Assembly (NCBI GenBank): GCA_043825875.1
Contig: JBDRRF010000052.1
Location: forward strand, 1-19,450
Length of the DNA: 19,450 nucleotides
Reading direction: 5' to 3'
Source: Pseudomonadota bacterium
GTDB lineage: Bacteria > Desulfobacterota > Desulfobacteria > Desulfobacterales > RPRI01
The notes beneath the pieces are model-generated. The model was not told where the DNA came from and searched no databases. It saw only the letters and a list, made by a program, of their open reading frames with translations. Of the stretch, positions 910 through 15,988 are shown piece after piece. The first letter of the stretch is position 1, and every line of letters begins with the position of its first letter. Position numbers and translations under genes: made by a program.

Positions 910-929
910 CATTAAAATGTTGCCCCTGG

Positions 930-1799
930 TTACAGGCAATATACAAAAATTTTAGTTGCAATCTTTGCAGCAGTAAACTCCGATACATTAGAGCCATCTA
1001 TTTTCGATAGTTCGTTGATATCTGCTGCAATTACTTTTCTTTTTTTACCGACTGCTTTTATAAGCCTAATAAGCTGCCTGTAAGAAAGGCCCCCGGGTTC
1101 AGGAGTGCCTGTGCCTGGTAAAACCGAAGGATCAAGCCCGTCAAGATCTATAGTCATATATACTTTTTCAGGCAGAGTCCGTACAACTTTATCTATCCAC
1201 GAGTCATCAGAACATTCTATTTTATGCGCATAAAAGGGTTTTAATTTCTTTTTCTTAACATATTCGGATTCTTCTTCAGAAAAAGATCTTATTCCAACTT
1301 GGGTAACCGGTATCTTTATATCATCAACAACTCTTCGCATTACACAGGCATGATTATACTTGCTCCCGTTCCAGATATTTCTCAAATCAAGATGGGCGTC
1401 TACCTGCAACACTCCTATATCAGGATAAATTTGGGCTGCCGCCATTATGGGTCCGATTGAAATTGCATGGTCTCCGCCAAGAGATAATAAAAATTTATCT
1501 TTTTCAAGAACTGCCTTTGCAGCCTTTTTCATTTCTTTGACGGCTTTTTCAGGATCATTTGAGGGGATAAAAGGTTTAAGGGTATGAATACCTATTTCTT
1601 CCCAATTTATCAGAGTTTCTTCATCCATGCTTTCAAGCTGCATTGATGCATCAAGTATATGGTATGGACCATCTTGACTGCCGATTCCATATGATGGCGC
1701 ATTCTCATAGCATAGCGGTAATACAACTATTTTTGCATTATCAAAATCTCTTGGGGGAACTTCATTGCTGCCGAAATAAATTTGTTTTTTTCTTTTCAT
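930..1799 (-). CDS. speB: Agmatinase (arginase/ureohydrolase family)
   Basis: Metal-binding motifs GGDHAIS, DAHLDL, DLDGLDPS and PGTGTPEPGG; directly downstream of an arginine decarboxylase. Start may be ATG 1799 (MKRKK) or 1811 as in the ORF track. Confidence 0.92.
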   Translation of the reverse strand: MKRKKQIYFGSNEVPPRDFDNAKIVVLPLCYENAPSYGIGSQDGPYHILDASMQLESMDEETLINWEEIGIHTLKPFIPSNDPEKAVKEMKKAAKAVLEKDKFLLSLGGDHAISIGPIMAAAQIYPDIGVLQVDAHLDLRNIWNGSKYNHACVMRRVVDDIKIPVTQVGIRSFSEEESEYVKKKKLKPFYAHKIECSDDSWIDKVVRTLPEKVYMTIDLDGLDPSVLPGTGTPEPGGLSYRQLIRLIKAVGKKRKVIAADINELSKIDGSNVSEFTAAKIATKIFVYCL

Positions 1800-1895
1800 A
1801 AAAAACCACATTCAGTCAAAAAATTTTTGCCTTATGATAGATTAAAAAACACTGTTTGGTAAGCTGTATTCGGAAATAGAGAGAAAAGCCGCTAA

Positions 1896-1930
1896 TTTAA
1901 ACCTTTGGCTACTAAAGCCAAAGGTTTAAA
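1896..1930. terminator. Perfect 15-bp stem hairpin between pdaD and speB
   Basis: TTTAAACCTTTGGCT (1896-1910), loop ACTAA, AGCCAAAGGTTTAAA (1916-1930); 11 nt after the pdaD stop; no clean U-tract on the minus strand. Confidence 0.6.
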
Positions 1931-1941
1931 ACGGTTGTGAT

Positions 1942-2487
1942 TTATCCTACAAAAATGGCCGCTGCAACTACTGTAGTCCAGAGATTCCTCTCTGCACCCA
2001 AACAGCCTTGGCTTGTATGTTGTGATTTGACTATCTTTCCGCTCATTTTGTAAACTTCGCGCCGTTCGTCATAGTCTTTATTCGGATCAAAATCGATACC
2101 CAGAGTATTTGCAAGCATTGATGCGGCAAGATCTTCGGCATATTCACCGGCTTCAAGTTCAGTCTGGCCGAATCCGTGATGTTCGGAAAGATATCCGTAA
2201 CGTCCCGGTTCGGCAGGTAAAGCAAGGCCGATACTTGCAACAACTCTTCTGCCAGGCTCATTAATTTGCTCACGAGCCATAACACAATATGTTACTTCAC
2301 CCGCTTCAAGCTTTGAAAGCCCCTTTTCTAAATCTATTATCTTACAACGTGGCGGAAATATAGATGAAACTGTTACTATATTAAGATGCGCAATGCGCGC
2401 ATCGCGAAGAGCATTTTCAAAGGAAGACAATTTTTCCTTCGCTATTCCAAATCCTTTGGTGAAAAACATATACCTTGGTACATACAT
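1942..2487 (-). CDS. pdaD: Pyruvoyl-dependent arginine decarboxylase (PvlArgDC)
   Basis: [25 protein letters not shown] with the Ser-Ser autocleavage site, [19 protein letters not shown]-rich RBS upstream. Confidence 0.93.
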
Positions 2488-2715
2488 GTTTTGTCCCCCC
2501 TTTTTTATTTATTTAAACCAAATAATCATCATAAACTCATGACATAACAATCCTATCTTATAAATTAACAAACATTAAATCAGCTTGCTTGTTTATAAGA
2601 AACTTGCCTTTTTACATATCATAGAATGTATAATCAAGAAAAAAATGTGTTTTAATAATAATAAAAGATTTTTTCTTATAATTCCAACAAGATCAATAAA
2701 TAAATAAACAACAAT

Positions 2716-3939
2716 TTATGATAACTCGTGGCAGGCTTCTCTGATAAGCTTTCCTATTTCCAAATTCTGCGGACATTTCTGTTCAGCAGCGGAAAAATCT
2801 AGATCTGTTAATCTTTTTCTTTCCGAAAAGGGAATTGTTTCAAAAAGCTCTTTTGCTAATACCGGTTCCTTATAATTTCTTGAATACATAAGACAGCGCA
2901 TAAGGTTACCAATAGGAACGGTCCCGGAAACAGCAGCTTCGCAAATCCGGGTGCAGCCGGCGCAGTAGGTACAAGCCGTTTCTTTGGCATATTGATTTAA
3001 AAGTTCTTTTTCAACAGATGAAAGCCTGGTCTTATCTATAGCAGCGGCAATATTGGACATAAGGATGGTAATGCTAGGCATTTGTGAACAAATACTTGCA
3101 ATATCAGGATTTTCCCAGATAGCTTTTAACTTTGCCTGTTTATCGCTATATCCTTTTTTTATAAATCTTCCGGCCATCTCAAGCTCTGTTTCGGAGCTTG
3201 TATTAACCTGTCCTCCGCCTTGAGTTTTCATGGCGGTTAAACCTATTCCTGCTTTTACACAGGCATCTACCGCTTTTTTCATATTATCGGTATGCATAAG
3301 CCTGAAATTATATGTCATCATTATTCCGTCTATCCAGCCGAGACGTGAGGCAGCCATCATATTTTCTTCCATATTGCTGTGAGTGCTGAAACCGAAAAAC
3401 CGTATCTTCTTATCCGCCTTTGCCTTCTCAGCCCATTTTTTAGTGTTATTATCAAGTTCACTTATTTTTTTTAAACCATGAATAAAATACAGATCAACAT
3501 GAGAGGTTTTCATTCTTTCAAGAGACCGGTTCAAAAGGCGGGTCATTCCATCAGGATCTCTATCGTCAGACTTTGATACAAGAAATATTTTTTTTCGCCC
3601 TTCCGGGTATTTATCAAAAAACTTGCCTATACCCTGTTCGCTTTTCCCTCCCTCATAGCAATCAGCAGTATCCCAGTAGGTCACACCCCACTTAATAGCC
3701 TGTTTTAAAAGAAGCTGATTTGACGGTATATCAAACATTCCGCCAAGCGACAGCATAGATACATTCTCGCCTGTTTTGCCGAATGGGCGCTTTGCTACCA
3801 TATCCTTGCCGGTATTTTGCGTTTTATCCGGCATTTTTCCAAGAGAATCGGAAGATGACAGCATTGTTCCCAATCCTGCGATGGATGCGCTTCTCAAAAA
3901 ATCTCTTCGCGAAAAATTTTTTTTATTACTCTTCATCAT
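2716..3939 (-). CDS. Aldo/keto reductase with twin-arginine signal and C-terminal Fe-S Cys cluster
   Basis: SRRDFLR Tat motif; KRPFGKTG, YWDTADCY, SLERMKTSHVDLYFIH (AKR fold); CAGCTRIC...CLMY...CPQ Cys cluster. RBS GGAGGG spacing favours the second ATG (3936). Confidence 0.88.
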   Translation of the reverse strand: MMKSNKKNFSRRDFLRSASIAGLGTMLSSSDSLGKMPDKTQNTGKDMVAKRPFGKTGENVSMLSLGGMFDIPSNQLLLKQAIKWGVTYWDTADCYEGGKSEQGIGKFFDKYPEGRKKIFLVSKSDDRDPDGMTRLLNRSLERMKTSHVDLYFIHGLKKISELDNNTKKWAEKAKADKKIRFFGFSTHSNMEENMMAASRLGWIDGIMMTYNFRLMHTDNMKKAVDACVKAGIGLTAMKTQGGGQVNTSSETELEMAGRFIKKGYSDKQAKLKAIWENPDIASICSQMPSITILMSNIAAAIDKTRLSSVEKELLNQYAKETACTYCAGCTRICEAAVSGTVPIGNLMRCLMYSRNYKEPVLAKELFETIPFSERKRLTDLDFSAAEQKCPQNLEIGKLIREACHELS

Positions 3940-3954
3940 ATCCCTCCACTTGTA

Positions 3955-5889
3955 CTATAAAATAATGGATGCCATCCTGTTTCTAGACTCATTATCGGAT
4001 GTTACTCTTATAGCCCGTTTTGTTCTCACGGGGCATTCATGTTCACAAACTCCACAACCTATACAACGCATCGGATCTATATAAGGTTTCTGAAGTCGGA
4101 TATAAATTTCGGCTATACTTCCATACACCGGTTTTTGTACCCATGGATTAGCTGTTGATATTGAAACCTTTTTTTCAGTATTTTTTATTATGAGCCGTAT
4201 TTTATCATCTTTACCCGGAACTTTACAGAAATAATCTCCTGTTGAAAAAGAACCCGGATTAAAATTTGAATTTGCAAATTCAAGATTAAGCGAATCGGAA
4301 TTTGATATCTCCAATTGCTTACCAACAACGGCAAAAGCCTCTTTAGTTAAAATTGCTTTCGGACTTACAGGACAATTTTCCTGGCATACTATACAGGGTT
4401 TTTCCATAGCCCAGGGAAGACAGCGGCCCACATCTACAAATGCAGTTCCTATCCTCACAGGGCCTTTTGAAGCGAACTTGTTTTTACCCACTTTTTCATC
4501 AAGGTTTAAAGGGCGTATGGCTGATGTCGGGCATATATTACTGCAAGCCACACAATTTAGCTGGCAGCCGCTTGTACCAATTGTAAAATCAAGTGTCGGG
4601 CTCCAAAAACCCTCAATACCCGCTTCTGTTAAAGCAGGCTGAATTACATTGGTAGGACATATTTTCATGCACTGTCCGCATTTTATGCAGCGTGCAAGAA
4701 AACCGGTTTCTTCCAGGGCTCCCGGAGGTCTTATTAATTCGGGATTATTGGCTTTAACTGCGTTCCCGCTTAAGCGAAGCATTGGAATAGCCATAACTCC
4801 CGATACAAAAGAAGTAACCAGTTTTCTTTTTGTAAGATCAGGAGAAGTTATTTCACCTGAGGCGGATGCCGATGTTTTATATCCTATCAGATCATGCGGG
4901 CACACATGCAAACAATTCATACAAAGTACGCATTCGCTTGTTCTGATTTTTGAAGAAGGTGTGCATGCACCTTCGCAATTATGCTCGCATAACAGACAGT
5001 CAGGACATTTATCTTCTGATTTTCCAATTCGCCATATTGAATAACGGCTTAGCAAACCAAAAAGAGCGCCAAGCGGGCAAATGAATCTGCAATAAAATCT
5101 TGGAATGTATAAATTCATAAAAACCGCTGTAAGAAAAACCGCTCCAATAATAAATGCCCCATTATAAAACCTCGTGCTGTGTGAAAGCTTAAAAAAGGTT
5201 CCGTCCATAAGCGGAATCAAAACAAGATTTACCGATCTGTAAAAAAGAGGAATGGGGTCCAACAAACCTGTTTGCAGCGAAGATATTAAAATACGGCTTG
5301 TTTTAGGAAGCATTGATAAAAGTACTAATAATACTGATGCTGCAATAACTGAAATTAAAACATTTTTTGGTTTTGAAATGATTTTAAAAAAGGAGAAAAT
5401 AATTAATAAAAATATAATTGCCGCAATAAAGCTCCAAAAAATTATAGGGCGCTCACTGGAAAAACCTGAGATATATATCAGAAGATCAGACAGGGCAGCG
5501 CTTAAAAGAAATATAAGGAATATATATTTTAAGTTCTGAGCACTTCTATATTTATTATACTCTGCTTTTTTTGCAGCTGATTTCTTTCTGTTTGCAATAT
5601 ATCCCGTAAACTGATGAAGCGTTCCGAAAGGACACAGCCAACCACAGAAAAACCTTCCTATAATAATGGTAATAATAACTGTGGCAAAACCCCATATAAG
5701 ACCGGAATGTATGGAATGCGTTGTAAGAAGAGTTCCTATTGCTGAAAGAGGGTCCAGTTGAATAATCCAGTTTACCGGCCAGCCGCGTAACTGCCACCAT
5801 TCAACACCGGGGGCAGTCACAATACAGAACCAGATTGTGATAATAAAAAAAAAGCCCTGGCTTATTCGTCTTACAGTTGTGATTTTCAT
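3955..5889 (-). CDS. Membrane polyferredoxin: NapH/MauN-like 4Fe-4S binding domain fused to NapG/MauM-like ferredoxin
   Basis: Several TM helices; GRFFCGWLCPFG and RFYCRFICPLGA motifs; six ferredoxin-type Cys clusters; IRPPGA...FLARCIKCGQC as in NapG/MauM. Confidence 0.87.
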   Translation of the reverse strand: MKITTVRRISQGFFFIITIWFCIVTAPGVEWWQLRGWPVNWIIQLDPLSAIGTLLTTHSIHSGLIWGFATVIITIIIGRFFCGWLCPFGTLHQFTGYIANRKKSAAKKAEYNKYRSAQNLKYIFLIFLLSAALSDLLIYISGFSSERPIIFWSFIAAIIFLLIIFSFFKIISKPKNVLISVIAASVLLVLLSMLPKTSRILISSLQTGLLDPIPLFYRSVNLVLIPLMDGTFFKLSHSTRFYNGAFIIGAVFLTAVFMNLYIPRFYCRFICPLGALFGLLSRYSIWRIGKSEDKCPDCLLCEHNCEGACTPSSKIRTSECVLCMNCLHVCPHDLIGYKTSASASGEITSPDLTKRKLVTSFVSGVMAIPMLRLSGNAVKANNPELIRPPGALEETGFLARCIKCGQCMKICPTNVIQPALTEAGIEGFWSPTLDFTIGTSGCQLNCVACSNICPTSAIRPLNLDEKVGKNKFASKGPVRIGTAFVDVGRCLPWAMEKPCIVCQENCPVSPKAILTKEAFAVVGKQLEISNSDSLNLEFANSNFNPGSFSTGDYFCKVPGKDDKIRLIIKNTEKKVSISTANPWVQKPVYGSIAEIYIRLQKPYIDPMRCIGCGVCEHECPVRTKRAIRVTSDNESRNRMASIIL

Positions 5890-6174
5890 TTGGCGTAAAT
5901 GCTTATAAAAGGCTGATGCTTGTTATATGGTAAACTTTTGTCTGCCTGTAAATTTTATAAAATCCGGCAGTCTGTTATTTTAGAATCCTAAAAGGATAAT
6001 ATCACAAAATATTTCAATATTGTATGAAACAAATTACACAAAATATCCTATAACAGCAATATTTTTTTTATTTTCCCCTGGTTTTTTACGTTTATCAGAA
6101 TAATGAATCGATTTAGTTTTTAAGGGTTCGTAAAAAGCTAAATGCGGTTATCCTTTGTTGGATATAAATTAGTC

Positions 6175-6203
6175 TTGACTTAAAACGCTAAACTCCTTAT
6201 GCA
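6175..6203 (+). promoter_or_regulatory. Putative sigma70 promoter of the NSS transporter
   Basis: TTGACT (6175-6180), 17 bp spacer, TATGCA (6198-6203); RBS GAGGAG before ATG 6255. Confidence 0.45.
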
Positions 6204-6254
6204 GGTAGTGCTGTAAAAGCAGGCTCTTATCGTTCAAACCAAGAGGAGACATAA

Positions 6255-7772
6255 ATGGAAAACAGAGGCGCTTGGAAAACAAATACCGGTTTTTTGCTGG
6301 CGGCAATAGGCTCTGCTGTCGGATTAGGCAATATTTGGCGGTTTCCTTATGTGGCCTATGAAAACGGTGGTGGCGCGTTCTTGATTCCTTATGTGATAGC
6401 GCTTATTACAGCCGGTATTCCGATTTTGATGTTAGAGCTTGCTTTAGGGCAAAAAAAGAAAGCATCTGCGCCCATGGCTTTTTCCAAGATTGATTCCAAA
6501 TGGGAATGGCTTGGATGGTGGTCGGTCTCTTTTGTAATGTTCGGCATTGTACTTTACTACATTGTGGTTATAGGTTGGTGCGCCAATTATATGCTTTTTT
6601 CTGTTTTTAAAAGCTGGGGAGCAGATACCAATAATTTTTTCTTCAACAAATTTCTTGCCAAATCAGGCGGCGTCTGGGAGTTTGAGGGGCTAAACTATTC
6701 TATTGTAATCGCTGTATTCATTATATGGTTTCTCAATTGGCTTATCACATATAACGGTATTGAAAAAGGCATTGAAAGAGCGGCGAAACTAATGATGCCG
6801 CTTTTGTTCGTTATTACCGTAATTATTATGGGGTGGGCTATTTCCCTTGATGGTGCAAAAGAAGGCATCCGTCTTTATACAAAACCGGATTTTGCTAAAC
6901 TCCGAAATATTCAGGTTTGGATAGATGCCTATGGCCAGATTTTTTTCTCACTTTCTTTAGGCTTTGGCATTATGATCGCCTATGCTTCTTATCTGCCAAG
7001 AAAAACCAATATTTTAAAAAACAGCCTTATCATCGGTTTTTCAAATAGTTTTTATGAAGTATTTGCCGGTTTCGGAGTTTTTAGCATTTTAGGTTATATG
7101 GCCTTAAAGTTGGGCAAACCCATAGAAGAAGTAGTAACAAGCGGAATCGGCCTGGCATTTGTAGCATATCCGGAGGCAATTTCGCTGCTTCCCTTTGGTC
7201 AGGTTTTTGGTGTTCTTTTTTTCTTCCTGCTGGTTATAGCAGGAATCTCTTCGTCTATTTCAATCATCGAGGCCTTTTCTTCTGCTATCCTCGACAAATT
7301 TGGAATACCCCGCAAAAAAGTTATTACTACCGTCTGCATTATCGGGTTTTTCGGTTCTTTGCTGTTTACTACCCATGCCGGTTTGTTCTGGCTTGATATA
7401 GTGGATCACTTTTTAAACCACTTCGGCCTTGTGACAGTGGGTATCTTGGAAGCTATAGTAATCGGATGGCTTTATAAAACACATCGCTTAAAAAACCACA
7501 TTGTAGATAACCTGGGACTTTCCGGTAACCGGCACCGGGTTTTTAAATACATTATTTTACAGATCTGGATGTACTGCATCAAATTCATAACACCTGTAGC
7601 ACTGGGCATTGCTCTAATCTACAGCCTGATAGAAGAATTTAAAACACCATATGGAGGCTATCCTGTTTCTGCCATAGTTGTGTTAGGCATCGGATGGCTT
7701 CTGGTAACACATCTTTTAGCTTTTGGACTAAGCGGGCTTCCGTGGAAAAAAGAGATAAAACGGGAAGAATGA
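6255..7772 (+). CDS. Sodium-dependent transporter, neurotransmitter:sodium symporter (NSS/SNF) family
   Basis: RGAW...AAIGSAVGLGNIWRFPY, NGGGAFLIPY, QIFFSLSLGFG and GLAFVAYPEAI signature motifs; about 11-12 hydrophobic helices. Confidence 0.95.
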   Translation: MENRGAWKTNTGFLLAAIGSAVGLGNIWRFPYVAYENGGGAFLIPYVIALITAGIPILMLELALGQKKKASAPMAFSKIDSKWEWLGWWSVSFVMFGIVLYYIVVIGWCANYMLFSVFKSWGADTNNFFFNKFLAKSGGVWEFEGLNYSIVIAVFIIWFLNWLITYNGIEKGIERAAKLMMPLLFVITVIIMGWAISLDGAKEGIRLYTKPDFAKLRNIQVWIDAYGQIFFSLSLGFGIMIAYASYLPRKTNILKNSLIIGFSNSFYEVFAGFGVFSILGYMALKLGKPIEEVVTSGIGLAFVAYPEAISLLPFGQVFGVLFFFLLVIAGISSSISIIEAFSSAILDKFGIPRKKVITTVCIIGFFGSLLFTTHAGLFWLDIVDHFLNHFGLVTVGILEAIVIGWLYKTHRLKNHIVDNLGLSGNRHRVFKYIILQIWMYCIKFITPVALGIALIYSLIEEFKTPYGGYPVSAIVVLGIGWLLVTHLLAFGLSGLPWKKEIKREE

Positions 7773-7778
7773 TTTAAA

Positions 7779-7829
7779 GATGAAAACACCCATGGTCTTT
7801 TGAAGCAATGTTTTCCAAAGAGAACTGAT
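7779..7829 (+). pseudogene. IS30-family transposase remnant
   Basis: Translates to DENTHGLLKQCFPKRTD versus the remembered IS30 motif NENTNGLLRQYFPKGTD: 12/17 identical, and all five differences are reachable by single-base changes; no start codon or full ORF. Confidence 0.72.
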
Positions 7830-7951
7830 AAAAGTAACAACTTATTCAAAAATATTGATAAAAGCAACTATACCTGATAATAGATAAAATCTGAATTTAT
7901 CAGATCAAAACATCATGTTAATCACTGGTTGGCTTATAATTAACAGCAATA

Positions 7952-9382
7952 ATGAAATTTCTGATTGATACGAATATAGTTGTACCATTAGAGCCTGGCT
8001 TGAGTTCTGACTTTGAAGTCAATACAGATCACGCATTAGAATTTCATAGGTTAGCACAAAAATCAAAAAACACTCTTCACGTCCATCCCTCAATTTATCA
8101 GGATCTATTAAGAGATAAGATTGATGAAAGAGCTAATTTAAGGAAAAAACTGTTACAAAGATATGAAACAATTGAATCCCCACCCTCATTAAATCTATTA
8201 GAAAAAGAGCATGTTGGTGATCCAGAAAAAGACAGTAATGATTTTGTTGATAATTGCCTTTTAGCATCCGTAAAGGGTGATGCCGTTGATTTTCTTGTCA
8301 CGGAAGATAAAGGGATTCATCGAAAAGCCCGAAGAAGTGGAATAGATTCAAGAGTTTTGTTTCTTCAAGAAGCGATTACTCTTTTATTGGATCTTTTTGA
8401 TAAATCGCCTCCCCCTCCTCCATCCGTTAAAAAAGTTTATGTTTATGAATTAAATGCAAATGATCCAATCTTTGACTCCTTACGTCATGACTATAACCCA
8501 GGATTTGACGAATGGTTGAAAAAGTGTAAAAGAACCCACCGTGAGGCATATACTATCCCAAATCATAACTTGACCTGTTTATCTGGAATTTGTATCTTTA
8601 AAAGTGAAGAATTTCTACCTACAGGCGATAAAGGACGAACCTTAAAATTATGTACTTTTAAGGTATCGGATTTCGAACATGGGAATAGATTTGGTGAGCT
8701 ACTATTTAAAACGGTATTTGATTACGCCGATAACAACAATTACGAATTTGTCTATTTCACTGTTTTTCCAAAGCAAGATGAATTAATAGCTTTTTCGGAA
8801 TCATTCGGGTTTCAGGTTTCAGAGGTACAAAACGATAGAGGAGAATATATAGTCTTTAAGAAACTTTCTTATACCATGGATGATGCTAAAAATTTATCTC
8901 CTCTACAATTTCATATCAATTTTGGACCAAGACGGGTGTTATTTCAGGGTAACTCCACATTTGTTGTTCCAATTAAACCAATTTTTCATGAATCTCGTCC
9001 TTGTGGGAATAGCATCAAGAAAGCTTATCTTTGTCATTCCCCAATCAAACAAATTAGGCCTGGGGATAATATTTTAATATACAGGTCTGATGATATTCGT
9101 GGAATTACAGCCATTGGAGCCGTTGAAGATACGCTAAAGTCTTCAAAGCCAGATGAAATAGCAAGGCACGTTGGATCAAGGACGGTATATAGTTTTGATG
9201 ATATTGTTGATTTCTGCAATAAACCAACGCTGGCTATCAGGTTTCGATATGTTAAAGACATAAACCCACCAATACGATTAAATGAGCTTAAGCAAAAAGG
9301 ATTTCTCGGTGGTGCACCTCAATCAATCATGAAACTCCGACAGGAGGGGGTTATATGGATAAAAACAAAACTAAACATGTGA
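7952..9382 (+). CDS. PIN domain - GNAT acetyltransferase - PUA-like (EVE/ASCH) domain fusion protein
   Basis: PIN: FLIDTNIV...DFVDNCLL...FLVTEDKGI. GNAT: LKLCTFKVSDFEHGNRFGELL...VYFTVF...FSESFGF. C-terminal PUA-like: IRPGDNILIYRS...ITAIGAVED...PIRLNEL...APQSI. Confidence 0.82.
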   Translation: MKFLIDTNIVVPLEPGLSSDFEVNTDHALEFHRLAQKSKNTLHVHPSIYQDLLRDKIDERANLRKKLLQRYETIESPPSLNLLEKEHVGDPEKDSNDFVDNCLLASVKGDAVDFLVTEDKGIHRKARRSGIDSRVLFLQEAITLLLDLFDKSPPPPPSVKKVYVYELNANDPIFDSLRHDYNPGFDEWLKKCKRTHREAYTIPNHNLTCLSGICIFKSEEFLPTGDKGRTLKLCTFKVSDFEHGNRFGELLFKTVFDYADNNNYEFVYFTVFPKQDELIAFSESFGFQVSEVQNDRGEYIVFKKLSYTMDDAKNLSPLQFHINFGPRRVLFQGNSTFVVPIKPIFHESRPCGNSIKKAYLCHSPIKQIRPGDNILIYRSDDIRGITAIGAVEDTLKSSKPDEIARHVGSRTVYSFDDIVDFCNKPTLAIRFRYVKDINPPIRLNELKQKGFLGGAPQSIMKLRQEGVIWIKTKLNM

Positions 9383-9792
9383 TTGCTTTAGCAATAAATC
9401 CTGTTTATGCACACGCAATATTATCAGGTAAAAAGATTGTTGAATTTAGGCGCAACGGTGTGCCTTCTAACATACAAAAAATCGTAATATACTCAACAAA
9501 GCCTGATCAAACAATATTGGGTTATTGCGATGTATCAAAATGTGTTGTCGATTCGCCGGATAATTTATGGAGAGACTTTGGTGAGTCTGGATATATAACT
9601 TATCATGCTTTTTCAAGCTATTATAAAGGGTATGAGGTCGGAAAATGCTATATTATAGAGAATCCTCGCCTTTTTAAGTCACCTTTACCATTAGAAAAAT
9701 GCAAAACTTTTTCGACTGCTCCACAATCATTTACATATTTAGATAAAAATGAGTGGCGTAATTTAAAAAGAAGGAAGACTGTCAACGAGTAA
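9355..9792 (+). CDS. ASCH domain protein
   Basis: AINPVYAHAILSGKKIVEFRR (GxKxxExR ASCH motif), IVIYSTKP, APQSFTY; RBS GGAGGGGG at 9343-9350; overlaps the upstream stop. Confidence 0.88.
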   Translation: MDKNKTKHVIALAINPVYAHAILSGKKIVEFRRNGVPSNIQKIVIYSTKPDQTILGYCDVSKCVVDSPDNLWRDFGESGYITYHAFSSYYKGYEVGKCYIIENPRLFKSPLPLEKCKTFSTAPQSFTYLDKNEWRNLKRRKTVNE

Positions 9793-9848
9793 ATAATATG
9801 TGAGATGGGCTGTCCACAGATTAAACTATCGATTATAGGTGTCTTATA

Positions 9849-10391
9849 ATGAGAAAGCGAATTGCTTTCGTTGGAGGCGTTCACGGGGTAGGAAAAAGCG
9901 TCTTTTGTAGTAAACTATCTGAAAAATTCGAATTTGATCATATTATTGCAAGTAGTTTAATAAATAGAGTACATCATATTGATCTTAAAAACAAATCTGT
10001 AACTAATATAGAAAACAATCAATTAATCCTGGCACAAGAGATAGCAAATTATAGGACTGAGAAAAATACTATTTTGTTGGATGGTCATTTTTGTCTACTA
10101 GATACATTTTCAAATATCCAAGAACTTCCCTTAGAAATATTTAAAGCAATATCACCTTTTGTTTTATTTCTTTTGGTAGATAAGCCATCAACTATTGCCC
10201 GTCGTCTTTCGAAAAGGGATGGCCGTGAATATAGTTCAGAGTTTGTATCGATTTTTCAAGAACGAGAAATAAAATGGGCAGGTTCAGTGGGTGCTGCAAT
10301 AAATGCTCCGATCAGAATTATTGATTTATCTCTTGATTATAAGGATATAGTCAACGATGTCAGCCTTTTTTTGTGCACCGAAGGGCATTAA
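9849..10391 (+). CDS. P-loop nucleotide kinase-like protein (AAA_17/AAA_18, archaeal adenylate kinase-like)
   Basis: N-terminal Walker A GGVHGVGKS, ILLDGHF, lid-like IARRLSKRDG; 180 aa NMP-kinase size. Confidence 0.85.
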   Translation: MRKRIAFVGGVHGVGKSVFCSKLSEKFEFDHIIASSLINRVHHIDLKNKSVTNIENNQLILAQEIANYRTEKNTILLDGHFCLLDTFSNIQELPLEIFKAISPFVLFLLVDKPSTIARRLSKRDGREYSSEFVSIFQEREIKWAGSVGAAINAPIRIIDLSLDYKDIVNDVSLFLCTEGH

Positions 10392-10494
10392 TACAATCTT
10401 GAATTATGAGTCGCCAACAACCGCCTACTTTTAGGCAAAAGGCGTACAACTGTAGCTATTTTTGTTCTTCGTTAGGTGGAGAAAGAGTTTACAA

Positions 10495-11538
10495 ATGATC
10501 AAATTATTTCAAATAACAGTTTTTGTTTTGCTCTTTTTATGTGCACAAATTTCATTTGCTGAAAAAATATTTATTGAATCACGGGTTGCTGATGGGTCGT
10601 GGCGTTCTGAACTTGCTATCGAACCATTAATAGGTCAAAAAGTTTTCTTGCGTGTCAAGGAAATTGATGGAGCTTCAATCCAGTGGTTTCGAATTCAGCC
10701 TAATATTAATATCCGATATAATAATGCGGTTTGGCCCTGGTTACCGAATGCATATAAATGGAAAGGGTTCGATGAAATAAAGTATAGCAGGATTTTACTT
10801 CCCCAATTTGATGGAAAATGGAAAATTAATATATTTCCTAAGAAAGGTTCGGCAGCCTCTCAAAAAGGGTCTTTAATAAAAAACGACTCCCTGCTTTCTT
10901 ATTTTCAAAGACGCCTTTTTGACACAAAAGCAAACGAAAGTTCTTTTGCTTCCAACAACATCGGAAGTTTCTGGTTTCAGGCTGAAGTCACTAAAAGCGG
11001 GCAAAAATTTGCAACACCGGGAATTGAAAGCAAAGACCATCGTGGGCTTTCGAACAAGGTTTTTCGTATTTCAATTAAACAAGGCAATGATCTGCTTGGG
11101 AATTTAACTTCTTATTTCAACGTACCGGCTGTTTTTGGCTCTACTCCTTATCAAGTTAAAAACCATATAGGTATCGATTGCGCTGATGTACTGATGGCAG
11201 CGTATAGTAAATCTAAAAACTTGCCTATAGCCAAGGATTACAATGTTGCTATGCTGACATCGAAATTTAAAACTGTTGTAAAATCACGTATTGAAGATGG
11301 GCAGCCTGTTTCAAAAATCCGATGGCAAAAAGATATACGGGCAGGAGACTTTATTGCGGTTAAATATTCTGTGAATGGTCAGTATCAGCACATTGGTGTT
11401 TTATACAATGACCAAAACGGGAATGGCCTTCTGGACGGAGAAGATTTAATTCTTCACGCAGGTCCCGATCCCCTACACTTTTCTATGATCAAGTCTGGCC
11501 CATTTGATGGTACAATTGCGATTCTCCGTACAGAATAA
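10495..11538 (+). CDS. Secreted protein with C-terminal NlpC/P60-like (papain-fold) domain
   Basis: Signal peptide MIKLFQITVFVLLFLCAQISFA from ATG 10495 (GGAG RBS upstream; the ORF track starts at TTG 10462); GIDCAD...AGDFIAV...YQHIGVLY...ILHA pattern. Confidence 0.62.
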   Translation: MIKLFQITVFVLLFLCAQISFAEKIFIESRVADGSWRSELAIEPLIGQKVFLRVKEIDGASIQWFRIQPNINIRYNNAVWPWLPNAYKWKGFDEIKYSRILLPQFDGKWKINIFPKKGSAASQKGSLIKNDSLLSYFQRRLFDTKANESSFASNNIGSFWFQAEVTKSGQKFATPGIESKDHRGLSNKVFRISIKQGNDLLGNLTSYFNVPAVFGSTPYQVKNHIGIDCADVLMAAYSKSKNLPIAKDYNVAMLTSKFKTVVKSRIEDGQPVSKIRWQKDIRAGDFIAVKYSVNGQYQHIGVLYNDQNGNGLLDGEDLILHAGPDPLHFSMIKSGPFDGTIAILRTE

Positions 11539-11587
11539 ATTGATAACACCCAATAATTGTAAGTGTTTAAAAAAAGGAGGATAGATA

Positions 11588-12187
11588 ATGAGAATTAAGT
11601 TTATTCAAATTTTGTTGATAATTTTTATTTTACAATTTGTTTTTGGTTGTTCTAACGCATTACGTCTAAATTACCAAACGCCGAATGCCGCCAGTTCTAA
11701 AATTGGAAAGATTGTTTTAGTATTAGATGATCAACGCAATCCTGAAAAGGGAGGAAATGACCCGCTGGTAATAGGCAATGTGAGAAATGCTTTTGGGATG
11801 CCTTTTAAAGCTAAAGCTTCTCCGCAAAGAGAGCCATCGAAGGTTATGCGCGAATTGTTATCTTCATGCCTTGCAGCTGCTGGCTATGAGGTAGTTGATG
11901 AATCAAGCAATGCGCCTGTATTACATGCAACACTCAAAAGTTTTTGGAGTGACGGTTATCAACACCAACGAATGTATATTAAGATGCAAACAGAACTTGT
12001 AAAAGAAATCGGCTCATCTCCGGTATGGATATCTTTTGTTGATGTAAACGAAGGTTTTACTGTGAAAACCGCTGGTTTTAAACAAATGAACGCCGGTTAC
12101 GAAAAGATGCTTGAAACCACAAAGAACAAATTATTGACAGATTTTAATCTAAAAGAGTTTTACACAGCGTACAAATCAATAAAGTAA
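11588..12187 (+). CDS. YajG-like lipoprotein
   Basis: RBS AAGGAGG; lipobox VFGC; IVLVLDDQR and LAAAGYEV segments resemble the YajG/Lipoprotein_16 family. Confidence 0.6.
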   Translation: MRIKFIQILLIIFILQFVFGCSNALRLNYQTPNAASSKIGKIVLVLDDQRNPEKGGNDPLVIGNVRNAFGMPFKAKASPQREPSKVMRELLSSCLAAAGYEVVDESSNAPVLHATLKSFWSDGYQHQRMYIKMQTELVKEIGSSPVWISFVDVNEGFTVKTAGFKQMNAGYEKMLETTKNKLLTDFNLKEFYTAYKSIK

Positions 12188-12198
12188 ATAGTAATGAT

Positions 12199-14106
12199 AT
12201 GAAATTATTATTTTCCATTTTTATAGCGATTTTCCTGTCCTGTTTTCTTTTTTTTGGATGCAGTTCGCATTCCGGTTCCATTTATCCAGTTAATGAGCCT
12301 TATTATATTACACCCTGTGAAATTGATGGGGGCTATGCCAAAACCCGCTCTTATGGAGCTCTCTTAAAAGTTTTGGAATCAAAGGGTGGATGGCTCATAA
12401 AATCAGTTGATAATGACATAGTGATTGCCGATGTTTGCCGCGGAAGCAATTGTGTGGAAGTTTCTTTTGAAATAGAAAAAGATGGGGCTATAAAAATAAA
12501 CCTTGTTGACAGTCAGAATGTTAGCTCACGATGGAGGCGTAATCTTGAGAATTACATTACGATCTTAAAAGAACGTCATAAAGAATTCTGCAGGTTAGAC
12601 ATCGCTTTTTTACAAAGCGTGATTAAGAAATATGAAGATTTTACACTTGCAGGTAGAGGATTCGATCAAAAATCGACCATTGATGAAAAAGATCATGAAC
12701 GGACTAGAATTATTGTTTCCCGATTCAAAAATTTAAGAGGACACCAGGAACACAAATGGCTAAGTATCGGTATATCATACCTTCTAAGCGGCTTTCTGAC
12801 CCAAATCAATAATATAGCCGTTGTTGAAAGAGACCTGCTTGAAACAATATTAAAAGAGCAGGCACTTTCTGCTCAAATTGATTACAACAATAAAAACCTC
12901 CCCCAAATTGGCAAATTGGTTGGAGCGGAAATGATAATTACCGGCAGCTATTTAATTGATAATAAAGAAATATCTATAAACACAAAAATGTTTAAAACCG
13001 AAACGGGTGAAATTGTTCAAGCAGATTATATTCGCGGACCTGTAAGTGAAATAAGAAAATTATGTGAAACTGTTATTATAAAAATGATATCAAAACTTAA
13101 TTATCCGTTTTCAGAAAAGGAAAAACACCTTCTTTCCGATAAGGGCCAACAGATGGTTAAAATCATGGAAGCCCTAAGCAATGGCGAACTTTTTCTTGCA
13201 GACGGGAAATTCGACGAAGCAAGAAAATATTATAAAAGAGCTTTGGATATCGAACCATACAACACGGATATACTAAACACAATAAGGTCTATAGATTCCC
13301 GGCTTAAGTCTGTCGCTATTATCAAATTCGACAACATAGGCAAAGAATCCGTTTATGATTATCTATCTATCAAGATACCTGAAGATTTAAATACCATTTT
13401 ATTACAAAAAACCGCTCTTCCTTTAACAGAAAGAATAAACCTTAAAAAAGCTCTGGAAGAACTAAAACTTTCCCAAACGGGATTGGTCGATGAGAAAACG
13501 GCTCCTAAAATTGGAAAGCTTTCCGGAGCATCATATTTGATTACAGGTTCTTTTTCAGTAAAACAAAAAAATATCATTCTTTATGCCAAGCTTATTAACT
13601 CTGAAACAAACAAAATTCTTTTAGCTGAAAGTCTAAGTGGTAAGCTTGAAAACATTTTGCAAACAGAAAACGATATAGCTGATAAATTAATTAATCGGCT
13701 CCGGGATGTTAAATCCATAAAGAATATGTCCGAAAAACTTTTGGCAGGAGAAAAACAACTTCAGATTGTATTAGATGAGTCAAGTATATCCTTTGATTTC
13801 GATAGTGCTACCTTAAATAAAAATAGCTATTTGGTTTTACAGGATCTCGCAAAAGTATTATTAGAATTTCCTGACTATAGAATTGTCGTTGTGGGCCATA
13901 CTGATAACGTAGGTGAAGCTGATTACAATCAGAATTTATCTGAAATGAGGGCACACAGTGTATTAAATTATCTCTTTGATTGTGGCGTTGAAAAAAGCAG
14001 ATTGACAAGCATTGGATATGGTGAAAGCAAACCTATCGTAAAAAATAGCAACGAGACAAATAAATCCCGAAACCGCAGAGTAGAATTCAGAATAATTCAC
14101 TATTAA
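12199..14106 (+). CDS. Lipoprotein with two CsgG/HfaB-like domains, a TPR and a C-terminal OmpA-like peptidoglycan-binding domain
   Basis: Lipobox FFGC; repeated VVERDLLETILKEQALS...IGKLVGAEMIITGSY and LTERINLKKALEELKLS...IGKLSGASYLITGSF; TPR GKFDEARKYYKRALDIEP; OmpA_C FDFDSATL...GHTDNVG...NQNLSEMRA...GYGESKP...NRRVEF. Confidence 0.85.
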   Translation: MKLLFSIFIAIFLSCFLFFGCSSHSGSIYPVNEPYYITPCEIDGGYAKTRSYGALLKVLESKGGWLIKSVDNDIVIADVCRGSNCVEVSFEIEKDGAIKINLVDSQNVSSRWRRNLENYITILKERHKEFCRLDIAFLQSVIKKYEDFTLAGRGFDQKSTIDEKDHERTRIIVSRFKNLRGHQEHKWLSIGISYLLSGFLTQINNIAVVERDLLETILKEQALSAQIDYNNKNLPQIGKLVGAEMIITGSYLIDNKEISINTKMFKTETGEIVQADYIRGPVSEIRKLCETVIIKMISKLNYPFSEKEKHLLSDKGQQMVKIMEALSNGELFLADGKFDEARKYYKRALDIEPYNTDILNTIRSIDSRLKSVAIIKFDNIGKESVYDYLSIKIPEDLNTILLQKTALPLTERINLKKALEELKLSQTGLVDEKTAPKIGKLSGASYLITGSFSVKQKNIILYAKLINSETNKILLAESLSGKLENILQTENDIADKLINRLRDVKSIKNMSEKLLAGEKQLQIVLDESSISFDFDSATLNKNSYLVLQDLAKVLLEFPDYRIVVVGHTDNVGEADYNQNLSEMRAHSVLNYLFDCGVEKSRLTSIGYGESKPIVKNSNETNKSRNRRVEFRIIHY

Positions 14107-14150
14107 AGGCATGGTTGTTGATATGGTTTGTTTTCCAATTTGTTAAGCGC

Positions 14151-14199
14151 TTGACAATATGCCCCACTTGATGTACGCTCAACTGTACACTTAAGGAGG
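14151..14199 (+). promoter_or_regulatory. TA operon promoter, TGTAC operator pair and RBS
   Basis: TTGACA (14151-14156), 17 bp spacer, TACGCT (14174-14179); TGTACG (14172-14177) and TGTACA (14184-14189) 12 bp apart; RBS AAGGAGG (14193-14199). Confidence 0.75.
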
Positions 14200-14209
14200 C
14201 CTTCGTACA

Positions 14210-14443
14210 ATGAGAACGATATCTTTTACAGATTTTCGAAAAAACGCTTCGGGCTTTATTACCGAAGTGGAACATGGAGAGACTCTTATTCTTTTGCGTC
14301 GGGGGAAACCCGTTGCAGAAGTGGTGCCTTTTTCAGATGAAACTTTGCGGAAACCTTCTTGGAAAAAATCCGTGACCCGTTTACAAATCAAAGGCAGTGA
14401 TCTGTCTTCCGCAATCTTAGATGACCGTGAGGCAAACTATTGA
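14210..14443 (+). CDS. Phd/YefM family antitoxin
   Basis: MRTISFTDFRKNASGFITEVEHGETLILLRRGKPVAEVVP Phd/YefM N-terminus; 77 aa; upstream of a PIN toxin. Confidence 0.92.
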   Translation: MRTISFTDFRKNASGFITEVEHGETLILLRRGKPVAEVVPFSDETLRKPSWKKSVTRLQIKGSDLSSAILDDREANY

Positions 14444-14868
14444 GATTGCTTGTTGATTCTTCATCATTTGCCAAAAGATATATCCAGGAAGCGGGCAGCG
14501 AACAGCTTGATGAATTCCTTCAACGGGCTTCAGAATTAGCTGTGTGCGTAATCTTAGTTACCGAACTCTTTTCTGCATTGAACCGACGTTTACGTGAAGG
14601 CGTGCTATCCAGCAAGGATTATCGAAAGGCTAAAGAGCTTTTATTGAATGATGTGAGCGATGCAACTGTCCTACAGCTAACCCCTGCGGTTATTTCACGT
14701 TCTGCCTATCTTTTGGAGAATTCTGTATTACGCGCTATGGACTCTTTGCATGTGGCTTGTGCATTGGAGTGGAAGGCGGATCTCTTCGTCACATCGGACA
14801 AAAGACAATTTGATTCAGCCGTTAGCTCAGGCCTCCGCACAGAATATCTTGGCCAACCTGGTGCTTGA
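14440..14868 (+). CDS. vapC: VapC-family PIN domain toxin
   Basis: LLVDSSSFAKRYIQE, TELFSAL, LRAMDSLHVACA, FVTSDKRQ; TTG start overlaps the antitoxin TGA (TTGA coupling). Confidence 0.92.
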   Translation: MRLLVDSSSFAKRYIQEAGSEQLDEFLQRASELAVCVILVTELFSALNRRLREGVLSSKDYRKAKELLLNDVSDATVLQLTPAVISRSAYLLENSVLRAMDSLHVACALEWKADLFVTSDKRQFDSAVSSGLRTEYLGQPGA

Positions 14869-14873
14869 ACAGA

Positions 14874-15362
14874 ATGGATTACATGTCTATTATAATTTTA
14901 ATTTTAGGAATAATACTTGTTTTAGCCGGTTTGGTAGGTCTAATCCTCCCCATACTTCCGGGCCCTGCTTTAATATGTGCCGGTCTTATCTTTGCCGCAT
15001 GGGCAGACAATTTTTCACACATGGGCAGTGTAACTGTTATTATTTTAATTGCTCTTGCCATTCTGGCTCACACATTAGACTTTATTGCAGCATCGTTTGG
15101 AGTTAATAAATTCGGTGCAAGTCGCTGGGCATCTGTTGGCGCTTTTGTTGGCGGAGTGGTGGGCCTTTTTTTCGGATTGGTTGGTGTTTTTATAGGACCC
15201 TTTATCGGCGCATTTATTGCGGAGCTTATAGCAAGAAACCGTATTGAACCTGCTTTTCGTGCAGGTATTGGCTCCTGGGTGGGAATACTTCTCGGTTCAG
15301 TTGCTAAAGTTGCGCTTGGGTTTGCAATGATAGGAATATATATTATTGCCCGCTTTTTTTAG
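14874..15362 (+). CDS. DUF456 family membrane protein
   Basis: GLILPILPGP, KFGASRWA, GPFIGAFIAEL and Gly-rich TM helices; ATG at 14874 or 14883 is more likely than TTG 14865. Confidence 0.88.
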   Translation: MDYMSIIILILGIILVLAGLVGLILPILPGPALICAGLIFAAWADNFSHMGSVTVIILIALAILAHTLDFIAASFGVNKFGASRWASVGAFVGGVVGLFFGLVGVFIGPFIGAFIAELIARNRIEPAFRAGIGSWVGILLGSVAKVALGFAMIGIYIIARFF

Positions 15363-15367
15363 AAGTA

Positions 15368-15988
15368 CTACTGTTTTTCAATAAGTCCCGCCTGGCGTTT
15401 TATCCTAAGTAGTCCTGGGCTTTTATTAAGATACATAAGAGTTGATGAACAACCCGCTGCTATAAATATTGATTCAATCTGATCAAACAGTACTATTTTA
15501 TCAGGCCATGTAAAGTCTTTTTGCTTTTTTTTTAAATTCTCCCATATCTTTTGCGCAGAAGGATTTTTATCAAATACTTCTTCTATTGCTTTATCACATA
15601 AGAACATTTGACATACAATAGGTTTGACCCGCCACACACAACCTTCCGGAGCCAGATAGATACATTTGTGGTTTGTGCTGGGTGTTTTAATTAATTTTTC
15701 GATGCTATCTAGCTCGGCATTACTTGCGCTAAGAGCATTTATTACTACATCGGCAAAAAAGGTTATTATTCCGTCTTTTGAACAGCAGGCACTCAACCTG
15801 TTTTGATAACAACTCAAGCTGCAAATTTCGGAAAAGTAGTCAGATAAAAATTTATCTGTTTGACTTCGAAACAAGAGATATTCTTTAAGGGGTACTCCCA
15901 GTGTTTGAAGTAATTCGGTTTTCAAATCCGCCATGTGGCAACTAATTATCTGAAGTGCTTCTGTTTGTTCTTTTTGATAGCTGTTCAT
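15368..15988 (-). CDS. Cys-rich hypothetical protein, YkgJ-like zinc/iron-chelating pattern
   Basis: CSLSCYQNRLSACC...CIYLAPEGCVWRVKPIVCQMFLC pattern (CxxxC..CC / C..L...GC....P..C..F.C). Confidence 0.6.
   Translation of the reverse strand: MNSYQKEQTEALQIISCHMADLKTELLQTLGVPLKEYLLFRSQTDKFLSDYFSEICSLSCYQNRLSACCSKDGIITFFADVVINALSASNAELDSIEKLIKTPSTNHKCIYLAPEGCVWRVKPIVCQMFLCDKAIEEVFDKNPSAQKIWENLKKKQKDFTWPDKIVLFDQIESIFIAAGCSSTLMYLNKSPGLLRIKRQAGLIEKQ

What the first reader, a model, noticed from the sequence alone, without database searches (positions are those of the whole stretch)
7952..10391. Three-gene PIN-GNAT-PUA/EVE + ASCH + nucleotide-kinase module: candidate modification-linked defence/conflict system
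Seen: three tightly packed co-oriented genes. Gene 1 fuses a PIN domain with apparently intact acidic residues (IDTN, VDN, TED), a GNAT domain (HGNRFG acetyl-CoA loop) and a PUA-like domain. Gene 2 is a translationally overlapping ASCH protein and gene 3 a P-loop NMP-kinase-like protein. Established: PIN domains are RNases, GNAT toxins (AtaT, TacT) acetylate aminoacyl-tRNA, and PUA-superfamily domains (EVE, ASCH, SRA, YTH) read modified nucleic acid. From memory, PIN-GNAT-EVE/ASCH/AAA neighbourhoods were noted in comparative genomics of EVE domains, but I know of no experimental characterisation. Inference: a writer (GNAT), two readers (PUA/ASCH), an effector (PIN) and a nucleotide kinase could sense or install acetylated or otherwise modified bases, for example on phage nucleic acid or tRNA, and trigger RNA cleavage. 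Its position next to an IS remnant in an accessory islet fits a defence role.
Basis: partly seen in the sequence, partly recalled or inferred. Interest (0 to 1): 0.85.

Follow-up and report, generated by a model that had tools for sequence, protein, structure and literature searches.

The report
Catalogued acetyltransferase-RNase module, damaged copy
These three genes are a real but already catalogued, still untested bacterial conflict module; this copy has lost a conserved 15-amino-acid piece, and the family looks like an acetyl-adding toxin paired with an acetyl-removing antidote.

Summary
Genes 1 and 2 match PADLOC candidate PDC-M11A/B (E 3e-155, 4e-35), and the PIN-GNAT-EVE + ASCH + AAA_17 layout is described as uncharacterised by Bell et al. 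2020. This scan met PDC-M11 before on other DNA. Family-level additions: the ASCH keeps the Lys/Glu/Arg motif that ac4C-removing ASCH enzymes need (72 of 73 loci); a coliphage record labels PIN-less homologues 'GevT toxin / GevA antitoxin' (no paper found); the kinase is optional (6 of 80 loci) but dedicated (76 of 76 kinase loci with room carry the module; 108 ASCH-kinase fusions). Best reading: a writer-eraser toxin-antitoxin module in which GNAT acetylates an RNA base, ASCH removes it, PIN cuts marked RNA and the kinase recycles nucleotides. All activities are inferred.

The parts
7767..14873 (.). Accessory islet between the SNF transporter gene and the DUF456 gene (approximate ends)
   Evidence: Same-genus G011 matches window 927-7766 and then 14874-15988 with 146 bases between; G008 diverges after 7790 and has other genes there. 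GC 0.361 against 0.391 for the genome.
7779..7835 (+). IS30 transposase C-terminal remnant (about 19 codons, no start, no ends found)
   Evidence: tblastn 63% over 19 aa to a same-genus IS30 transposase, E 3e-5 in a small search; weak plasmid hits; no Pfam or NCBIfam hit.
7952..9382 (+). Gene 1: PIN (about aa 1-150) - GNAT (about 153-307) - EVE/ASCH-like domain (about 332-476); PADLOC PDC-M11A
   Evidence: Pfam, PADLOC E 3e-155 over 1-475, 812 homologues, AlphaFold model of an intact 82%-identical homologue pLDDT 89.6, structure matches: GNAT Z 15-16, C-terminal domain to ZmASCH Z 15, rmsd 2.5-2.8 over 137-139 residues.
8978..8992 (+). Junction of a 45-bp in-frame deletion (15 codons lost after His346), at one copy of a Pro-Ile-Phe/Tyr-His coding repeat
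   Evidence: Spacer is 18-24 residues in 115 of 116 aligned proteins and 5 only here; lost L-F-P-E positions are in 114, 115, 114, 109 of 116. A public contig of the probable source run has the same letters at depth 28.5. Model loses helix 343-349, pLDDT under 50 at 347-351.
9355..9792 (+). Gene 2: ZmASCH-family ASCH protein with intact GxKxxExR motif; PADLOC PDC-M11B; homologue of the protein labelled GevA antitoxin
   Evidence: Pfam, PADLOC E 4e-35, ZmASCH E 1e-15 over 11-137, invariant K27 E30 R32 Y46 W72 Y89 P123 in 61 of 61, 32% to GevA, E 3e-20 pairwise.
9849..10391 (+). Gene 3: AAA_17 P-loop protein of the nucleoside-monophosphate-kinase type, dedicated to this module family
   Evidence: Pfam AAA_17 E 8e-15; nearest solved proteins are adenylate kinases, E 3.5e-4; archaeal-type adenylate kinase model E 4e-7, far under cut-off; GxHGxGK and LDGHF invariant in 7 of 7; kinase-anchored loci.

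Best explanation
Identity (shown, about 0.97): a member of the (PIN)-GNAT-EVE + ASCH (+AAA_17) operon class, PADLOC PDC-M11, on a recently gained islet, with a deletion in gene 1's C-terminal domain. Mechanism of the family (inferred): a writer-eraser toxin-antitoxin module. (1) The EVE/ASCH-like domain of gene 1 binds RNA, most likely tRNA; (2) the GNAT domain acetylates an amine on it, most likely a base such as cytidine N4; (3) the translationally coupled ASCH protein hydrolyses the acetyl group with its Lys/Glu pair and so acts as an enzymatic antitoxin; (4) when the eraser is lost or outpaced, for example after phage shut-off, marked RNA builds up and the PIN domain cuts it, arresting the cell; (5) the optional kinase rephosphorylates the released, de-acetylated nucleoside monophosphates. 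Domains, residues, linkage and context are shown; every activity, the substrate and the trigger are inferred. In this copy step 1 is probably weakened (about 0.55).
For: ASCH beside gene 1 in 73 of 80 loci; of the other 7, five end within 27 bases of the contig end and two have a truncated gene 1. GxKxxExR in 72 of those 73, and in 130 of 132 ASCH from kinase-anchored loci. A preprint reports that the Lys and Glu of this motif are required for removing ac4C from tRNA and that all 19 ASCH proteins tested, ZmASCH among them, did so in vitro; gene 2 is a full-length ZmASCH homologue. A GenBank phage record labels the PIN-less homologue 'GevT toxin' and its ASCH 'GevA antitoxin'. Gene 1 is found broken beside an intact ASCH in 6 of 80 loci (five in two frames, one split by IS66), as expected of a costly gene. 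The kinase is fused to ASCH in 108 of the 120 listed hits and never seen without the module where there was room (25 of 25, 51 of 51), which points to a shared small substrate; EOLA1, an ASCH of the Glu type, salvages free ac4C (abstract). PIN, GNAT and P-loop residues are conserved.
Against: No activity is measured. The GNAT fold is closest to protein N-terminal acetyltransferases (Naa60, Ard1, RimI, Naa50; Z 15-16, tied) and also matches the aminoacyl-tRNA toxin TacT; it has no TmcA-type ATPase domain, which known ac4C writers need (established knowledge). ZmASCH did not hydrolyse free ac4C and did not lower tRNA ac4C in cells; it was first described as a weak ssRNase. The eraser result is a preprint in which every protein tested was active, so it may be a non-specific remnant, as its authors allow. 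The GevT/GevA labels have no paper that I could find. Bell et al. argue from HsdS-ASCH and HTH-ASCH fusions that these ASCH domains bind modified DNA. The fusion count comes from a search seeded with a fusion. Some broken gene-1 copies may be assembly errors.
Confidence: 0.38

Rival explanations
1. AtaT/TacT-like toxin with a binding antitoxin or regulator: GNAT acetylates the amino acid on charged tRNA (or a protein N-terminus), EVE selects modified tRNAs, PIN degrades the acetylated tRNA, and ASCH neutralises by binding or by regulating expression (close to the proposal of Bell et al. 2020).
For: TacT is among the Foldseek matches (rank 16, E 9e-6) and the top structural matches acetylate alpha-amines. 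HTH-ASCH fusions are common. Gene overlap suits a 1:1 complex. The GevT/GevA labels fit equally well.
Against: No ribbon-helix-helix antitoxin is in the operon. Strict conservation of the ASCH catalytic motif and ASCH-kinase fusions are not explained by binding alone.
Confidence: 0.27
2. DNA-base modification accessory of restriction-modification: GNAT-EVE acetylates a DNA base (Iyer et al. 2013, as cited by Bell et al.), ASCH reads or removes it, and PIN is a back-up effector triggered when the R-M system fails.
For: Type I R-M genes in 16 of 80 loci, a subunit as the next gene in 11; BREX, type II and type III methylases next door in four more. Bell et al. report HsdS-ASCH fusions. PIN-less forms dominate in viral contigs (PIN in 8 of 73 against 40 of 80 in metagenomes).
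Against: 64 of 80 loci, and this window, show no type I gene within the fetched DNA (29 loci are under 10 kb). PIN domains are RNases (established knowledge) and an NMP kinase suits RNA turnover.
Confidence: 0.2
3. Whatever the family does, this particular copy is a decaying relic: the deletion removed gene 1's activity and the islet is neutral cargo.
For: The lost segment is in 115 of 115 homologues and even in the 27%-identical GevT; it is helix 1 of the barrel; fit to ZmASCH drops from rmsd 2.5-3.2 to 3.4-3.8. An IS remnant sits where the promoter should be and no good + strand promoter was found there. The kinase comes from another lineage of the module.
Against: All three frames are open, all catalytic residues of PIN, GNAT, ASCH and kinase are kept, and the barrel still models at high confidence (mean pLDDT 91.3). 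The consensus promoter scan is no better than chance (11 found, 12.1 expected).
Confidence: 0.35
4. The deletion is an assembly artefact at a short repeat and the gene is intact in the cell.
For: The junction lies on a short direct repeat; the genome is assembled from a metagenome.
Against: A separately built public contig of the probable source run spans 7000-11500 in one piece with no difference or gap at depth 28.5; a 12-bp repeat is shorter than usual assembly words. That run may be the source and contigs drop rare variants, so this is not independent.
Confidence: 0.05

Closest known systems
(PIN)-GNAT-EVE + ASCH (+ AAA_17) operons (Bell, Wolf and Koonin 2020, PMC7641849, crediting Iyer et al. 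2013)
   Same: Same domain order, same ASCH partner, same optional AAA_17 gene; same split between PIN-bearing chromosomal and PIN-less prophage forms.
   Different: No type I R-M neighbour at this locus; 15-residue deletion in the EVE-like domain; the paper treats ASCH as a DNA reader and AAA_17 as a non-essential regulator, whereas the motif and fusion data here point to an eraser and a dedicated NMP kinase.
PADLOC candidate PDC-M11 (Payne et al. 2024, bioRxiv 2024.01.29.577857)
   Same: Gene 1 = PDC-M11A (E 3e-155, full length), gene 2 = PDC-M11B (E 4e-35).
   Different: No PDC-M11 model hit gene 3. The paper calls its 145 candidates untested; its tables naming M11 were not visible.
GevT / GevA of Escherichia phage PhiR47_2 (GenBank PV340567 labels only)
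   Same: GNAT-EVE-like protein (27% over 253 columns) overlapping an ASCH gene (32% over 122); both are PDC-M11.
   Different: GevT has no PIN domain and there is no kinase in the record's table; it sits beside cI in a lambdoid phage. The basis of the labels is unknown to me.
ZmASCH (Zymomonas mobilis ZMO0922, PDB 5GUQ) and Glu-type ASCH ac4C deacetylases (TthASCH, EOLA1)
   Same: Gene 2 is a full-length homologue with the octapeptide, Tyr47, Tyr90 and Ser128 equivalents; gene 1's C-terminal domain has the same fold (TM 0.75-0.81 by target).
   Different: Lys53 is Gln here; gene 1's domain has no GxKxxExR; activity of either is untested.
AtaRT / TacAT GNAT toxin-antitoxin systems
   Same: GNAT fold (TacT in the Foldseek list); probable toxicity.
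   Different: No RHH antitoxin; GNAT is fused between PIN and an EVE-like domain; partner is an ASCH protein.

Membership tests
(PIN)-GNAT-EVE + ASCH operon class (Bell 2020) | GNAT domain with EVE fused at its C-terminus | tested here: met
   Pfam EVE over cut-off; GNAT under cut-off here but over in the 78%-identical homologue; structure Z 15-16 for both domains.
(PIN)-GNAT-EVE + ASCH operon class (Bell 2020) | N-terminal PIN domain with acidic active site (in the PIN subtype) | tested here: met
   PIN_3 E 8e-4 (under cut-off); D6, D51, D100, D119 present and conserved. No PIN structure was among the listed fold matches, which the GNAT domain filled.
(PIN)-GNAT-EVE + ASCH operon class (Bell 2020) | ASCH gene in the operon | tested here: met
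   Overlapping gene 2; 73 of 80 related loci.
(PIN)-GNAT-EVE + ASCH operon class (Bell 2020) | AAA_17 gene often present | tested here: met
   Gene 3, Pfam E 8e-15; 6 of 80 related loci.
(PIN)-GNAT-EVE + ASCH operon class (Bell 2020) | Frequent closeness to type I R-M (a tendency, not a rule) | tested here: inconclusive
   None in this window, HsdS genes elsewhere in the genome; 16 of 80 related loci.
(PIN)-GNAT-EVE + ASCH operon class (Bell 2020) | Intact EVE-like domain (helix after strand 1, L-F-P-E motif) | tested here: not met
   15 residues deleted. This marks a damaged allele, not another family.
PADLOC PDC-M11 | Adjacent PDC-M11A and PDC-M11B genes | tested here: met
PADLOC PDC-M11 | PADLOC's own system rule and thresholds | not testable with these tools
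   Only the profiles could be scanned.
Glu-type (GKER) ASCH ac4C deacetylases | Octapeptide Lys, Glu (required) and Arg | tested here: met
   K27, E30, R32 invariant in 61 of 61; requirement from the preprint's section read.
Glu-type (GKER) ASCH ac4C deacetylases | Measured removal of ac4C | not testable with these tools
   Bench assay needed; closest relative ZmASCH active only on tRNA in vitro.
TmcA / NAT10 ac4C writers | GNAT joined to a helicase-like ATPase domain | tested here: not met
   No such domain in gene 1. Feature recalled from established knowledge.
AtaRT / TacAT type II TA | Upstream ribbon-helix-helix antitoxin gene | tested here: not met
   No ORF or family of that kind next to gene 1. 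Feature recalled from established knowledge.
AtaRT / TacAT type II TA | Acetylation of aminoacyl-tRNA | not testable with these tools
   Fold likeness only.
Validated anti-phage system | Measured protection against phage | not testable with these tools
   PDC candidates are described as untested; no test found in searches.

The most novel reading that the evidence does not exclude
PDC-M11 is a widespread toxin-antitoxin and anti-phage family built on reversible acetylation of an RNA base: an ATPase-free GNAT writer, an ASCH eraser acting as an enzymatic antitoxin, a PIN RNase that cuts marked RNA and a dedicated kinase that salvages the released nucleotides. It would give ASCH deacetylase activity its first cognate writer in a conflict system, and the window's deletion allele would be a natural reader-domain mutant.
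Probability: 0.28. Interest if true: 0.78.

Novelty: new member of a known kind. Interest (0 to 1): 0.36.

Why it matters
The locus itself is one of hundreds (812 protein clusters; 442 stretches in species-representative genomes) and is probably a weakened allele, so it is a poor choice for bench work. The family matters more: it has been predicted since 2013-2020 and I found no experimental paper. The 2026 reports that Glu-type ASCH proteins remove ac4C turn a vague 'reader' into a sharp, cheap hypothesis (does ASCH K27/E30 undo what the GNAT does?). If true it would be a new chemistry of toxin neutralisation and a new route to writing acetyl marks on RNA.

Tried and rejected
Complex prediction of an intact gene-1 homologue with its own ASCH: no verdict, not used either way. 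Integron-cassette idea for 10408-10480 (AAC ... GTTAGGT): the bottom strand folds no better than shuffles (z -0.26) and no convincing attC pair was found in a scan of 7700-15400; rejected. Promoter and terminator scan: chance level. Gene 1 as single query in viral contigs: nothing; the kinase alignment later found 73 viral loci. No RNA holder listed for this DNA; two RNA runs of the same study laid nothing; not evidence. Pfam and NCBIfam did not recognise the IS30 fragment. TmcA and PIN structures were not among the listed fold matches; the lists were filled by GNAT entries, so this is inconclusive. Iyer et al. 2013 was not held. Searches for a GevT/GevA paper returned only unrelated papers, Bell 2020 and one preprint that merely uses the phage panel; its reference list was not reached. 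Four TmcA-helicase-like matches in the host genome were not examined. Earlier-finding look-ups by sequence and by place returned nothing.
Full report
1. Observation. The three ORFs exist as described. Pfam gives PIN_3, Acetyltransf_1 and EVE for gene 1, ASCH for gene 2 and AAA_17 for gene 3; the PIN and GNAT scores are under the curated cut-offs. Gene 2 overlaps gene 1 by 28 nt behind an AGGAGG sequence; gene 3 starts 56 nt after gene 2. In an alignment of 116 proteins (the window protein and 115 of the other 119 listed hits; four partial ones left out) the PIN acids D6, D51, D100, D119 and the GNAT glycines G244 and G248 are in 114-116 rows and are present in the window.

2. Surroundings. Same-genus genome G011 runs from the SNF transporter gene straight into the DUF456 gene, so about 7767-14873 is an insertion; G008 has different genes after SNF. 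Of 17 genomes of the genus only this one has a full-length gene 1; G014 has a 31%-identical copy cut by a contig end. The module's GC is 0.348 against 0.391, lower than about 91% of equal-sized genome pieces. A 19-codon IS30 remnant precedes gene 1. The rest of the islet is an unknown secreted protein, two lipoprotein-like genes and a Phd-VapC pair; of these only the OmpA domain hit PADLOC, generically.

3. It is catalogued. Genes 1 and 2 are PADLOC PDC-M11A and B. Payne et al. 2024 call the 145 PDC systems untested (passages; M11 is not named in the main text and the supplement is closed). Bell et al. 2020 describe PIN-GNAT-EVE proteins, nearly always with ASCH and often with AAA_17, near type I R-M, with PIN-less forms in prophages, and say none of the modules was characterised (abstract and passages). 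They credit Iyer et al. 2013, which I could not read. A GenBank record of coliphage PhiR47_2 labels a PIN-less homologue GevT toxin and its ASCH GevA antitoxin; both score as PDC-M11. I found no paper behind the labels and no experimental test of the family in searches (listings only; the two preprints naming PDC-M11 were not read; subscription journals are mostly not held).

4. This copy has a deletion. The closest homologues are 491 aa, the window protein 476. Fifteen residues are missing after His346. The spacer is 18-24 residues in 115 of 116 rows and 5 only here; the lost L-F-P-E positions are in 109-115 rows and L-F-P survives in GevT. In close homologues a Pro-Ile-Tyr/Phe-His word stands at both ends of the lost piece, which suggests slippage between short repeats (inference). 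A public contig of the probable source run has the same letters (not independent). The AlphaFold model of an intact homologue has a helix at 343-349; the window model has none and pLDDT under 50 at 347-351, though the barrel remains. Fit to ZmASCH falls from rmsd 2.5-3.2 to 3.4-3.8. The lost helix aligns to the region that lines the ASCH pocket, so nucleic-acid reading is probably impaired; that is inference.

5. Conservation of the module. A profile scan of species-representative genomes found 442 stretches; the best 80 were kept. ASCH lies beside gene 1 in 73 of 80; five of the rest end at a contig edge and two have a truncated gene 1. The kinase is in 6 of 80. Seen from the kinase, the link is tight: among 80 metagenome loci gene 1 is present in 68 and ASCH in 63; among 73 viral loci 70 and 70; every locus with 2 kb on both sides carries one or both (25 of 25, 51 of 51) (loci are partly redundant). 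A search seeded with the ASCH-kinase fusion of L051 gave 108 two-domain proteins among 120 listed. The PIN domain is in 40 of 80 metagenome and 8 of 73 viral loci, as Bell et al. state. The window is a mosaic: its kinase is 68% identical to that of L103, whose gene 1 is only 27% identical, while the nearest gene-1 and gene-2 relatives tested (L001, L002, L003, L005, L045) show no kinase.

6. Defence context. Type I R-M genes occur in 16 of 80 loci (12 of the 51 loci of 10 kb or more). Of 143 immediate neighbours from 78 loci, 34 hit PADLOC at E 1e-10; dropping three generic hits (TPR, ABC ATPase, HTH) leaves 31 in 27 loci. A small control of 28 other genes from the window and a relative gave one generic hit. 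Six of the 27 loci share one Fic-type neighbour and are not independent; the ORF calling was crude, and the control is small.

7. What the parts suggest. Gene 2 is a full-length homologue of ZmASCH (profile E 3e-30). K27, E30, R32, Y46, W72, Y89 and P123 are invariant in 61 aligned sequences (window plus 60 of the 73; 13 with long extensions, fusions or near-duplicates left out), and GxKxxExR is in 72 of all 73. A 2026 preprint (abstract, passages, sections 21, 22, 25) reports that 19 of 19 ASCH proteins removed ac4C from tRNA in vitro and that the Lys and Glu are required; ZmASCH was inactive on the free nucleoside and in cells. ZmASCH was first reported as a weak ssRNase (passages). A second preprint (abstract, passages, first quarter of section 41) shows EOLA1 salvaging free ac4C and suggests that bacterial ASCH proteins in R-M operons process nucleosides released by tRNA cleavage. 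Gene 1's C-terminal domain, EVE by Pfam, is structurally closest to ZmASCH and weakly similar in profile to gene 2 (E 1.4e-4, probability 52), but has no GxKxxExR; I read it as a non-catalytic duplicate (inference). The GNAT fold is nearest to alpha-amine acetyltransferases and does not reveal the substrate. Gene 3 is nearest to adenylate kinases. Gene 1 is broken beside an intact ASCH in 6 of 80 loci, and another homologue has its own 15-residue deletion in PIN.

8. Mechanism. Most likely (0.38): writer-eraser toxin-antitoxin, with PIN as effector and the kinase for salvage. Rivals: AtaT-like tRNA or protein acetylation with a binding antitoxin (0.27); DNA-base modification tied to R-M (0.20). 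On a separate axis, this copy may be inactive (0.35). Domain content, residues, linkage and context are shown; activities, substrate and trigger are not.

9. Verdict. Real, correctly described, already catalogued and, as far as I could find, untested. New member of a known kind, probably a weakened allele. The value lies in the family-level, directly testable eraser hypothesis. Interest 0.36. Also read without bearing on the result: PMC12839542 and PMC12707154 (passages) and bioRxiv 2025.11.03.685801 (passages). Closed bioRxiv supplements may bear on the definition of PDC-M11 and on ASCH gene neighbourhoods.

Noticed in passing
window 10462-11538 +: Secreted-looking 358-aa protein with no Pfam or NCBIfam family; Atlas leads point to an NlpC/P60-like C-terminal part (feature score 0.79; structure row under the bar) and it has Cys and His motifs that would fit. 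A lead only.
   Followed up: partly
window 12199-14106 +: Lipoprotein-like gene with two CsgG/FlgO-like domains, a TPR and an OmpA domain, inside the islet.
   Followed up: no
window 14210-14868 +: Ordinary Phd/YefM antitoxin and overlapping VapC-type PIN toxin at the right end of the islet.
   Followed up: no
window 930-2487 - and 6255-7772 +: Agmatinase-family, pyruvoyl arginine decarboxylase and SNF transporter genes, conserved in two relatives; ordinary polyamine metabolism.
   Followed up: no
window 9355-9358 and L001-L077 gene junctions: In many loci the ASCH start ATG lies on the codon of gene 1's conserved C-terminal Trp, so that residue may be conserved because of the overlapping start. 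Not counted.
   Followed up: partly
L002 6331-9377: An IS66 transposase gene splits the N-terminus of the gene-1 homologue while the ASCH gene is intact.
   Followed up: partly
L212, L213, L220-L225, L232, L233, L235, L238-L240, L246, L248, L252, L253: Viral loci in which the GNAT and EVE-like parts are two separate ORFs, followed by ASCH, with the kinase convergent on the other strand.
   Followed up: no
L054 9422-10237 +: ASCH extended to 272 aa by a part with no Pfam family.
   Followed up: no
PDB 5GUQ/5GUS: ZmASCH chains are named 'Helix-turn-helix domain-containing protein', like the ASCH genes beside GNAT genes on alphaproteobacterial plasmids; ZmASCH may itself come from this operon class. 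Not checked.
   Followed up: no
window 10408-10480: Short intergenic stretch with AAC and GTTAGGT words reminiscent of an attC site and a 6-bp hairpin; folding is at chance level and it has no second copy in the genome.
   Followed up: yes
Methanothermobacter phage psiM100 8233-9648: A full-length PIN-bearing homologue (30% identity) lies in an 'inserted fragment' of an archaeal phage record.
   Followed up: no
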